Of a DNA stretch of 64,000 nucleotides, positions 46,093 through 47,064 are shown one piece after another. How positions within the stretch are numbered: the first letter of the stretch is position 1; each line of letters begins with the position of its first letter. The position numbers and the translations under genes were made by a program. Location of the stretch: assembly GCA_000165345.1 (NCBI GenBank), contig CM000433.1, positions 384,001 to 448,000 of the forward strand, read 5' to 3'. The notes beneath the pieces are model-generated. The model was given only the letters and a program-made list of their open reading frames with translations, was not told the DNA's origin and searched no databases.

Positions 46093-47064
46093 TTACAGGA
46101 TCCAAAATAATTGAAGTAACCCTTTGATATAGCCAAATATTTCATTTTTTCCTAATTTAGAATCTCCATAAAGTCTATCTACAAAAACTATCGGTACATC
46201 AGCAATTGAATACCCAAATTTCGTAGCTCTAGCAATAATTTCCATTTGAAAGACATATCCTTTACTAACCATATTGCTACCTAGTATTGATTTGAATACG
46301 TCTCTTTTGTAAAGTCTAAAAGACCCAGTTAGATCACTAGCTCTTGGTTGAAGTAAGAAGTTAGCTACATTGGCAGGGACGAATATAAATTGAATTATTT
46401 TATTATTTTCTCTAAATCTTCAACTTACCAAGGAAATTGGCTACTCTACTGACTAAAATTCTATCCCACGTCCACCCAGAGACTCCACCATTTCTTATGT
46501 ACCTTGATCCTGAAACAATATCAAAATCTTTAGTTTCTTGTTTTTCAATAAAATCTGCGATATATTTTGGGTGATGGGATAGGTCGCAGTCCATTAGTAT
46601 AATAAAGTCACCTTCAGAATGTTCAAAACCTTTCATATATGCAGTGCCTAGTGACGGTTAATATATATTTATTTGTTTTGTTAAGGTTACTTACCTAGTC
46701 CCAATTTTCCCTTTCTCTTAACAAGTTTCTGAGAAAAAATGTTGCGTGTTTGTAAATGCAATCGAATTTTTCTTTAACTTACAATATTAACTTCAGGATA
46801 ACATTTTTGGAGCTTTTCCACTACCTCTGCTGTGCCGTCAGGGCTAGAATCATCAACAATAATAATCTCCCAGTTTACAGGCCTTTAAAGTTTTTTTTCC
46901 AATTGAAAATATTTTTTTTTAAATTAGTTTTATAGCTTTCGCGTTTAATTAGCTACTTACAATTTACTAAATGTTTCATGGAGAAGCTCAACCATTATAC
47001 CAACATTTTCTCTTTCATTATATGTTGGAATAATAACACTGTACATTGGGCTCACTTTCAACAT
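46093..47064 (-). CDS. DPM1: Dolichol-phosphate mannosyltransferase catalytic subunit (DPM1). Five exons: 46961..47064, 46783..46882, 46695..46728, 46429..46647 and 46093..46364.
   Basis: The spliced product is [35 protein letters not shown] / [33 protein letters not shown] / [11 protein letters not shown] / [73 protein letters not shown] / [90 protein letters not shown]. It is collinear with human DPM1 from start to end. All four introns are GTAAGT...YAG and 47 to 78 nt long. Only a 74-aa fragment appears in the ORF track. Confidence 0.82.

What the first reader, a model, noticed from the sequence alone, without database searches (positions are those of the whole stretch)
46093..47064. Complete five-exon DPM1 gene hidden between ORF-track entries
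Only a 74-aa fragment (46412..46636) appears in the ORF track. Splicing four GTAAGT...YAG introns (78, 54, 47 and 64 nt) yields a 242-aa protein collinear with human DPM1 from the PTYNERENL motif to the C-terminus. It is the most intron-rich gene in the window, next to mostly intronless neighbours. Its stop lies only 13 bp from the convergent PITH-domain gene stop. It shows that gene content here is under-called by ORF scanning, and that exons of 34 nt exist.
Basis: seen in the sequence. Interest (0 to 1): 0.5.

Follow-up and report, generated by a model that had tools for sequence, protein, structure and literature searches.

The report
Known five-exon Cryptosporidium DPM1 gene

Summary
On the minus strand of 46093..47064, five exons (104, 100, 34, 219 and 272 nt) are separated by four short introns (78, 54, 47 and 64 nt). 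All four introns start with GTAAGT. Spliced, they give a 729-nt reading frame of 242 aa.

That protein is identical, residue for residue, to GenBank EAZ51293.1 / XP_001388271.1, [quoted passage not shown]. The gene DNA is identical to the annotated gene in two C. parvum chromosome-5 assemblies. A 2022 paper (PMC9713705) already describes DPM1 = cgd5_2040 as having four introns and a 242-aa product.

Independent support:
- 61% identity to a vertebrate DPM1, with one 1-residue gap and none at the junctions.
- Exon lengths 100/34/219/272 are conserved in five Cryptosporidium species, while intron lengths vary.
- All four intron positions and phases are shared with Toxoplasma gondii DPM1.
- The first three positions, including the 34-nt exon, are also shared with animals.

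Minor corrections: intron 1 ends in AAG, not YAG, and the motif here reads PTYNERENV.

The 13-bp gap to the PITH gene stop is confirmed. By annotation-span arithmetic, this is the most intron-rich gene in the window.

Verdict: real, correctly interpreted and already known. Interest is low.

The parts
46961..47064 (-). DPM1 exon 1 (104 nt). ATG at 47064, a second in-frame ATG at 47046, ends in phase 2. Encodes [34 protein letters not shown](L).
   Evidence: There is an in-frame TAG 9 codons upstream of the ATG. Codons 8-23 differ from C. felis, C. xiaoi and C. andersoni almost only at third codon positions (0/0/10, 1/0/9, 1/1/11 by position).
46883..46960 (-). Intron 1, 78 nt, GTAAGT...AAG, 21% GC, phase 2.
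   Evidence: Same CDS position and phase in five Cryptosporidium species, T. gondii, Saccoglossus and a cichlid.
46783..46882 (-). DPM1 exon 2 (100 nt).
   Evidence: It is 100 nt in every species mapped.
46729..46782 (-). Intron 2, 54 nt, GTAAGT...CAG, phase 0.
46695..46728 (-). DPM1 exon 3, a 34-nt micro-exon encoding [11 protein letters not shown](G). It includes invariant residues R73 and K76-G80.
   Evidence: It is 34 nt in Cryptosporidium, T. gondii, the hemichordate and the fish.
46648..46694 (-). Intron 3, 47 nt, GTAAGT...TAG, phase 1.
46429..46647 (-). DPM1 exon 4 (219 nt). It contains the DXD motif (D99-C-D101) and is the part seen as the 74-aa ORF 46412..46636.
   Evidence: It equals the sum of T. 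gondii exons 4-7 (77+26+53+63).
46365..46428 (-). Intron 4, 64 nt, GTAAGT...TAG, phase 1.
   Evidence: The position is shared with T. gondii intron 7 but not with the two animals.
46093..46364 (-). DPM1 exon 5 (272 nt, including the TAA stop at 46095-46093).
   Evidence: It is 272 nt in all five Cryptosporidium species.
46080..46092 (.). 13-bp spacer between the convergent stop codons of the PITH gene and DPM1.
   Evidence: The same 13 bp is seen in C. hominis (L006 2975 to 2989). Other species have 27-75 bp.
45474..46079 (+). Convergent neighbour: an intronless PITH-domain gene (201 aa), deposited as 'thioredoxin' EAK88065.1.
   Evidence: Pfam PF06201, E = 1.3e-24. Exact match to a deposited protein.

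Best explanation
Window 46093..47064 (minus strand) is the Cryptosporidium parvum chromosome-5 gene cgd5_2040. It encodes DPM1, the catalytic subunit of dolichol-phosphate mannose synthase (GT2 family, EC 2.4.1.83).

**Gene structure**
- Four short spliceosomal GT-AG introns are removed from the pre-mRNA to give a 242-aa soluble-type GT-A glycosyltransferase.
- All four intron positions are inherited. They are shared with T. gondii, and three are shared with animals.
- Cryptosporidium has kept 4 of the 10 intron positions present in T. gondii. Three of the four lie in the first third of the coding sequence.
- Translation most likely starts at ATG 47064 (or 47046), not at Met24 as in the 219-aa IOWA-ATCC model.

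**Function (inferred)**
- By inference from characterised orthologues, the enzyme transfers mannose from GDP-mannose to dolichol phosphate on the cytosolic face of the ER.
- In Cryptosporidium the Dol-P-Man is thought to feed GPI-anchor mannosylation only (PMC9713705).

**Shown:** the gene structure, identity with the deposited gene, homology and intron-position conservation.
**Inferred:** the enzymatic activity, its cellular role, and splicing in vivo. Splicing rests on published annotation statements, not on reads I could inspect.
For: - The spliced frame closes at 729 nt / 242 aa with GTAAGT donors.
- The product is an exact sequence match to EAZ51293.1 / XP_001388271.1 / WKS77858.1 / KAL5368634.1, 'dolichol phosphate mannose synthase [C. 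parvum Iowa II]'.
- The gene DNA is identical to the annotated 972-bp gene in CP029784.1 and CM109965.1. There are 1 and 5 mismatches over 20,972 bp.
- Pfam PF00535, E = 1.4e-39.
- The top PDB hit is the P. furiosus Dol-P-Man synthase 5mlz, E = 5e-34.
- Thousands of DPM1 homologues were found. The nearest non-Cryptosporidium ones are 59-63% identical.
- A 14-sequence alignment has 83 invariant columns, including D99 and D101 of the DXD motif, and no gaps at the junctions.
- BLASTP against a cichlid DPM1: 61% identity, E = 2e-102, a single 1-residue gap.
- tblastn gave significant hits (E < 1e-10) only at this locus, in frames -2/-1/-2.
- Exon lengths 100/34/219/272 are conserved across C. parvum, hominis, xiaoi and andersoni, and in felis with a corrected donor. 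Intron lengths vary (46-80 nt) and intron identity is well below exon identity.
- T. gondii exons are 104/100/34/77/26/53/63/..., so the Cp introns match Tg introns 1, 2, 3 and 7.
- Saccoglossus and the cichlid also have the 100-nt and 34-nt exons with phases 2/0/1.
- Literature: DPM1 = cgd5_2040, four introns, 242 aa, 0 TMD. CPATCC_002211 has identical introns (PMC9713705). Introns of the IOWA-ATCC annotation are stated to be 100% RNA-seq supported (PMC8744675).
- N-terminus: codons 8-23 show third-position-only divergence across species and carry invariant residues Y8, V10, P13, Y15, N16, E17 and N20.
Against: - I could inspect no transcript reads. A probe spanning junctions 2-3-4 found nothing in the metagenome collection, which is uninformative.
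- The evidence-based IOWA-ATCC annotation chose a shorter, 219-aa product starting at Met24, so the start codon is disputed.
- Intron 1 uses a less common AAG acceptor.
- Enzymatic activity has not been measured for this protein, as far as the searched literature shows.
Confidence: 0.95

Rival explanations
1. Same gene and same four introns, but the real product is the 219-aa protein starting at Met24 (window 46995), as in the IOWA-ATCC annotation (CPATCC_002211). The upstream 69 nt would then be 5' UTR.
For: QOY41636.1 (219 aa) comes from an annotation described as evidence-based (PMC8744675). PMC9713705 notes the discrepancy without resolving it.
Against: - The missing segment holds the [14 protein letters not shown] motif, whose residues Y8, V10, P13, Y15, N16, E17 and N20 are invariant from animals to apicomplexans.
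- This segment aligns to the start of the catalytic domain of 5mlz.
- Between Cryptosporidium species, codons 8-23 change almost only at third positions (0/0/10, 1/0/9, 1/1/11) with 0-2 amino-acid changes. That is the signature of translated sequence.
- The frame is open from ATG 47064, with a stop 9 codons upstream.
Confidence: 0.07
2. One or more junctions differ from the model, as in the shorter C. felis (234 aa) or C. ubiquitum (229 aa) gene models, or exon 3 is skipped.
For: Other species' deposited models differ at junction 4 (felis) and junction 1 (ubiquitum).
Against: - Those variants delete residues that are conserved in all other DPM1s.
- In C. felis, a canonical GTGAGT donor 21 nt downstream restores the 219-nt exon and the RVANFLA residues.
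- Every C. parvum, hominis, meleagridis, tyzzeri and chipmunk-genotype model agrees with the four junctions.
- Skipping the 34-nt exon would shift the frame.
- The only other AG tested inside intron 1 leads to an in-frame TAA (my reading).
Confidence: 0.02
3. A decayed pseudogene or a chance arrangement of ORF fragments.
For: None, beyond the fact that only fragments appear in a prokaryote-style ORF list.
Against: - An intact 242-codon frame with 83 invariant family columns.
- Exon identity exceeds intron identity in every species comparison.
- Syntenic placement between the FHA and PITH genes in five species.
- It is the only DPM1-like locus in this window. It is the one DPM1 listed in the published genus-wide pathway reconstruction (PMC9713705).
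Confidence: 0.005

Closest known systems
C. parvum Iowa II cgd5_2040 (XP_001388271.1 / EAZ51293.1), dolichol phosphate mannose synthase
   Same: Identical protein. Identical 972-bp gene span and DNA. Four introns and 242 aa, as published (PMC9713705).
   Different: Nothing: it is this gene. The IOWA-ATCC model CPATCC_002211 differs only in starting 69 nt further downstream.
Animal (human-type) DPM1, the catalytic subunit of the DPM1/DPM2/DPM3 complex
   Same: - 59-62% identity, collinear from YSV(I/L)(I/L)PTYNEREN to the C-terminal KGLLxLF.
- No transmembrane segment: the highest 19-residue Kyte-Doolittle mean is 1.09, and PMC9713705 Table 5 lists 0 TMD.
- Intron positions 1-3 and the 34-nt exon are shared.
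   Different: - It lacks the variable N-terminal extension of the vertebrate proteins.
- Only 4 introns, against 8 in the hemichordate. The cichlid mapping is ambiguous downstream of exon 5.
- Whether Cryptosporidium has DPM2/DPM3 partners was not examined. PMC9713705 does not mention them.
Toxoplasma gondii ME49 DPM1 (P0013)
   Same: 59% identity. Exons 1-3 are the same lengths, 104/100/34 nt. All four Cp introns coincide in CDS position and phase with Tg introns 1, 2, 3 and 7.
   Different: T. gondii has 10 introns of 164-664 nt. C. parvum keeps 4, shortened to 47-78 nt.
Pyrococcus furiosus Dol-P-Man synthase (PDB 5mlz)
   Same: The GT-A catalytic domain aligns over residues 7-238 (E = 5e-34), including the DXD region and the C-terminal GxSKL segment.
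   Different: The archaeal enzyme is 374 aa, about 130 residues longer at its C-terminus. By my recollection of the published structure that extension is a four-helix membrane domain. The Cryptosporidium protein ends at the catalytic domain.

Membership tests
DPM1 / dolichol-phosphate mannosyltransferase (GT2, EC 2.4.1.83) | GT2 GT-A glycosyltransferase domain covering most of the protein | tested here: met
   PF00535, E = 1.4e-39, residues 9-179 matching profile positions 1-167 of 168.
DPM1 / dolichol-phosphate mannosyltransferase (GT2, EC 2.4.1.83) | DXD metal/nucleotide-sugar motif and N-terminal PTYNE motif conserved | tested here: met
   D99 and D101 (MDCDLSHH) and P13, Y15, N16, E17 are invariant in the 14-sequence alignment. 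They align with the MDADLQH and PTYNEREN segments of 5mlz.
DPM1 / dolichol-phosphate mannosyltransferase (GT2, EC 2.4.1.83) | Closest relatives are DPM1 orthologues rather than other GT2 subfamilies, with end-to-end collinearity | tested here: met
   - All named top hits are DPM1 or Dol-P-Man synthase, at 56-99% identity and 96-100% coverage.
- PDB: Dol-P-Man synthase scores 121 bits, against 69 bits for the next family, ArnC.
- NCBIfam bacterial and archaeal equivalogs all score far below their cut-offs.
DPM1 / dolichol-phosphate mannosyltransferase (GT2, EC 2.4.1.83) | Catalyses GDP-Man + Dol-P -> Dol-P-Man + GDP | not testable with these tools
   No biochemical data for this protein were found in the searched literature.
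Human-type (TM-less) DPM1 class | No C-terminal transmembrane helix; ends with the short KGLLxLF-type tail | tested here: met
   The highest 19-residue Kyte-Doolittle mean is 1.09. The C-terminus aligns with animal DPM1. PMC9713705 Table 5 lists 0 TMD.
Human-type (TM-less) DPM1 class | Depends on DPM3 (membrane tether) and DPM2 partners | not tested
   Partners would be encoded elsewhere in the genome, and only this window was available. PMC9713705 does not mention DPM2 or DPM3.
Spliceosomal GT-AG introns | GT...AG boundaries whose removal restores one open frame; the unspliced sequence is interrupted by stops | tested here: met
   Four GTAAGT donors with AAG/CAG/TAG/TAG acceptors, giving 729 nt of open frame. 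Each intron carries an in-frame stop within its first 1 to 6 codons.
Spliceosomal GT-AG introns | Position and phase conserved in orthologues while intron length and sequence drift | tested here: met
   Exon identity to C. felis, C. xiaoi and C. andersoni is 0.62-0.82, against intron identity of 0.45-0.61.
Spliceosomal GT-AG introns | Spliced transcripts observed | not testable with these tools
   Indirect only. The IOWA-ATCC annotation, whose introns are reported as 100% RNA-seq supported (PMC8744675), has the same four introns. The junction probe in metagenome contigs found nothing.

The most novel reading that the evidence does not exclude
The most novel reading not excluded has two parts.
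- Retention of exactly these four ancestral introns in a genome where about 90% of genes are intronless may not be just the passive residue of 3'-biased intron loss. It could reflect a function, for example splicing-dependent expression control of DPM1.
- The 13-bp stop-to-stop spacing forces the 3' UTRs of DPM1 and the PITH gene to overlap. That overlap could couple their expression through antisense transcripts.

Nothing I ran speaks for either idea beyond the anatomy.
Probability: 0.05. Interest if true: 0.35.

Novelty: already known. Interest (0 to 1): 0.08.

Why it matters
As a discovery it matters little. The gene, its four introns and its 242-aa product are already in GenBank, CryptoDB and a 2022 paper.

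Its practical value is as a calibration point:
- It shows that a tool-less reader can reconstruct a multi-exon gene exactly.
- It shows that prokaryote-style ORF tracks under-call genes in this eukaryotic window.

Two small by-products may help annotators:
- Comparative codon evidence favours the 242-aa start over the 219-aa IOWA-ATCC model.
- The C. felis, C. ubiquitum and C. hominis TU502 models of this gene look mis-called.

DPM1 supplies Dol-P-Man for GPI anchors of Cryptosporidium surface antigens. A correct gene model therefore matters for anyone expressing or targeting the enzyme.

Tried and rejected
- **Transcript evidence.** I probed the JGI metagenome contigs with a 57-nt sequence spanning exon 2 / exon 3 / exon 4. 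There were no hits, which is uninformative.
- **RNA elements.** An Rfam scan of 45300-47700 gave only a sub-threshold chance hit, E = 0.81. No RNA element is detectable in the introns or flanks.
- **First spliced mapper.** My first exact spliced-mapping script allowed chained zero-length exons. I collapsed these.
- **Revised spliced mapper.** It still returned artefactual 3-nt and 1-nt exons for the cichlid downstream of exon 5. Only exons 1-5 of that species are used.
- **GPN-loop GTPase neighbour.** Pure arithmetic enumeration gave 28 possible intron sets. I accepted the single set with two GTAAGT donors that restores the P-loop VIGMAGSGKTS. This rests on my own knowledge of the GPN P-loop motif, not on a database test.
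- **NCBIfam.** It gave only far-below-threshold bacterial and archaeal GT2 equivalogs, as expected for a eukaryotic protein.
- **Pseudogene, chance or alternative-junction readings.** Considered and rejected; see the rival explanations.
- **Structure prediction.** Not run. Homology at about 60% identity to characterised DPM1 made it unnecessary.
- **Human DPM1.** Not aligned. I used vertebrate DPM1 sequences from the database instead of a recalled human sequence.

Full report
**1. What is in the sequence**

| Feature (minus strand) | Coordinates | Length | Notes |
|---|---|---|---|
| Exon 1 | 47064-46961 | 104 nt | ATG at 47064 |
| Intron 1 | 46960-46883 | 78 nt | GTAAGT...AAG |
| Exon 2 | 46882-46783 | 100 nt | |
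| Intron 2 | 46782-46729 | 54 nt | GTAAGT...CAG |
| Exon 3 | 46728-46695 | 34 nt | |
| Intron 3 | 46694-46648 | 47 nt | GTAAGT...TAG |
| Exon 4 | 46647-46429 | 219 nt | |
| Intron 4 | 46428-46365 | 64 nt | GTAAGT...TAG |
| Exon 5 | 46364-46093 | 272 nt | includes the TAA stop |

- Together the exons give 729 nt = 242 codons plus stop.
- The introns are AT-rich (21-30% GC, against 31-40% for the exons).
- Each intron has an in-frame stop within its first 1 to 6 codons, so the unspliced sequence cannot encode the protein.
- A prokaryote-style ORF list shows only the pieces: 74 aa at 46412..46636, 59 aa at 46093..46272 and 35 aa at 46957..47064.
- The frame is closed by a TAG nine codons upstream of the ATG at 47064.
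- The convergent ORF 45474..46079 (+) is a PITH-domain protein (PF06201, E = 1.3e-24).

**2. What it is**

- The 242-aa product matches Pfam GT2 (PF00535, E = 1.4e-39).
- Its best solved-structure relative is the Pyrococcus furiosus dolichol-monophosphate-mannose synthase 5mlz (E = 5e-34, residues 7-238).
- The large protein search returned thousands of DPM1 homologues. The top hit was C. hominis DPM1 (242 aa, 99% identity). Next came other Cryptosporidium species, then Toxoplasma, Besnoitia, animals, fungi and algae at 56-63% identity over 96-99% of the query.
- An exact-sequence look-up showed the product is residue-for-residue EAZ51293.1 / XP_001388271.1 / WKS77858.1 / KAL5368634.1, 'dolichol phosphate mannose synthase [Cryptosporidium parvum Iowa II]'. 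The PITH neighbour is exactly EAK88065.1.
- The annotated gene in two C. parvum chromosome assemblies (CP029784.1 and CM109965.1) spans 972 bp, the same as 46093..47064. Its DNA is identical to the window, and the surrounding 20,972 bp differ at 1 and 5 positions.
- The window is therefore C. parvum chromosome 5, about CP029784.1:413,872-477,871.

**3. Formal test of collinearity**

- A 14-sequence alignment with Cryptosporidium, coccidian, animal, fungal and algal DPM1 has 83 invariant columns and no gap at any of the four junctions (residues 34/35, 68/69, 79/80, 152/153).
- The invariant columns include Y8, V10, P13, Y15, N16, E17 and N20 (the PTYNE region), K76-G80, D99 and D101 (DXD) and D163-L170.
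- BLASTP against a cichlid DPM1 gives 61% identity over residues 8-239, E = 2e-102, with a single 1-residue gap.
- tblastn with frog, cichlid, Toxoplasma and hemichordate DPM1 against the whole window gives significant hits (E < 1e-10) only at 46096-47046. They fall in frames -2/-1/-2, matching the exon frames.

**4. Comparative test of the introns**

I mapped each deposited protein exactly onto its own genomic locus, allowing only GT/GC...AG jumps.

| Species | Exon lengths (nt) | Intron lengths (nt) |
|---|---|---|
| C. parvum | 104/100/34/219/272 | 78/54/47/64 |
| C. hominis | 104/100/34/219/272 | 80/53/47/66 |
| C. xiaoi | 113/100/34/219/272 | 46/54/68/48 |
| C. andersoni | 110/100/34/219/272 | 72/63/63/57 |

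- C. felis is deposited with a 198-nt exon 4 using a GTAGAG donor. A GTGAGT donor 21 nt further on restores 219 nt and seven conserved residues.
- Exon identity to C. parvum is 0.62-0.82 for felis, xiaoi and andersoni. Intron identity is 0.45-0.61.
- T. gondii ME49 DPM1 has 11 exons: 104/100/34/77/26/53/63/49/53/108/59. The four C. parvum introns sit at exactly the CDS positions and phases of T. gondii introns 1, 2, 3 and 7, and 77+26+53+63 = 219.
- A hemichordate and a cichlid also have exon 2 = 100 nt and exon 3 = 34 nt, with phases 2/0/1.
- The first three introns and the 34-nt exon therefore predate the split between alveolates and animals. Cryptosporidium has kept 4 of the 10 introns present in T. 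gondii.
- The retained introns lie mostly in the 5' third of the gene. From my own knowledge, that is the usual pattern in intron-poor genomes.

**5. Literature**

- PMC9713705 (Front Mol Biosci 2022) lists DPM1 = cgd5_2040, 242 aa, no signal peptide, 0 TMD.
- It proposes that Dol-P-Man is used only for GPI anchors in this parasite.
- PMC8744675 says the introns of the IOWA-ATCC annotation are 100% RNA-seq supported.
- PMC4637869 reports introns in about 10.8% of C. parvum genes, 2-10 exons per intron-bearing gene (mean 2.6), mean intron length 99 bp and 22% GC. A five-exon gene is in the upper part of the known range, not outside it.

**6. The start codon**

- All C. parvum models share the four junctions and differ only at the 5' end: 242 aa, 224 aa (partial) and 219 aa.
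- Codons 8-23 are absent from the 219-aa model. Compared with C. felis, C. xiaoi and C. andersoni they differ at codon positions 1/2/3 by 0/0/10, 1/0/9 and 1/1/11, with 0, 1 and 2 amino-acid changes.
- They carry residues that are invariant across eukaryotes.
- This favours the long model, starting at Met1 or Met7.

**7. 'Most intron-rich gene in the window'**

I compared annotated gene span with 3 x (aa + 1) across the window.

| Gene | Window coordinates | Intron content |
|---|---|---|
| DPM1 | 46093-47064 | 243 nt in 4 introns |
| GPN-loop GTPase | 15947-17176 | 168 nt; best solved as two GTAAGT introns of 120 and 48 nt that restore the P-loop |
| Alba | 3554-3946 | 99 or 56 nt, depending on the annotation |
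| Proteasome alpha | 2495-3319 | 57 nt |
| PH protein | 19221-20998 | one 47-nt intron |
| M60 peptidase | 35572-38695 | one 46-nt intron |

- The remaining ~23 genes are intronless. They include all six complete neighbours within 10 kb.
- The claim holds, on annotation arithmetic rather than on transcripts.

**8. Mechanism**

- Shown: the gene structure, the homology and the absence of any transmembrane segment. The highest 19-residue Kyte-Doolittle mean is 1.09.
- Inferred from orthologues: a cytosol-facing GT-A enzyme transfers mannose from GDP-Man to Dol-P.
- As in the animal TM-less class, it would need a membrane partner of the DPM3 type. I could not look for one.

**9. Verdict**

- Novelty is nil: it is cgd5_2040.
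- Interest is low.

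Noticed in passing
window 46995-47064 (5' end of DPM1); public models QOY41636.1 and WRK32348.1: The C. parvum IOWA-ATCC model (219 aa) and a 224-aa 'partial' model drop the conserved N-terminal [14 protein letters not shown] segment. Third-position-only divergence across species indicates this segment is coding, so the 242-aa model looks right.
   Followed up: yes
L005 2607-2702 (C. felis DPM1); P0131 (C. ubiquitum); P0126 (C. hominis TU502): Orthologue gene models look mis-called. C. felis uses a GTAGAG donor 21 nt too early and loses 7 conserved aa; a GTGAGT donor at L005 2628 fixes it. 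C. ubiquitum lacks 13 aa at junction 1. TU502 XP_668195.1 is just the 74-aa exon-4 ORF.
   Followed up: partly
L003 4018-5964 (C. andersoni): The C. andersoni annotation fuses the CAP/SCP gene and the PITH gene into one 593-aa product. They are separate genes in C. parvum, hominis, felis and xiaoi, so this is probably an annotation merge.
   Followed up: no
window 43901-45142 (+): The start of the CAP/SCP-domain (PR-1-like) secreted-protein gene is disputed: 413 aa from the first ATG (IOWA-ATCC) against 389 aa in two other C. parvum annotations.
   Followed up: no
window 15947-17176 (-): The GPN-loop GTPase gene appears as two ORF fragments. Two GTAAGT introns (120 and 48 nt) join them into the annotated 353-aa product and restore the P-loop VIGMAGSGKTS. 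It is the second most intron-rich gene in the window.
   Followed up: partly
window 2495-3319 (-), 3554-3946 (+), 19221-20998 (-), 35572-38695 (-): Four further genes carry short introns by annotation-span arithmetic: proteasome alpha (57 nt), Alba (99 or 56 nt, the annotations disagree), a PH-domain protein (one 47-nt GTAAGT...TAG intron) and an M60 peptidase (one 46-nt GTAAGT...TAG intron). The M60 gene shows up as two adjacent ORFs in an ORF list.
   Followed up: partly
window 46080-46092 and the equivalents in L003-L006: Stop-to-stop spacing between DPM1 and the PITH gene is 13 bp in C. parvum and C. hominis, 27 bp in C. andersoni, 61 bp in C. felis and 75 bp in C. xiaoi. The genome-wide mean intergenic length is about 550-590 bp (PMC4637869). 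The 3' UTRs must overlap the opposing gene.
   Followed up: partly
window 59937-64000 (-): No long ORF was listed after 59124. The annotated 1803-aa Nipped-B-like gene (intronless) runs off the window end, which explains the apparent gap. The Dnmt2 methylase gene discussed in PMC8744675 lies just beyond the window.
   Followed up: partly
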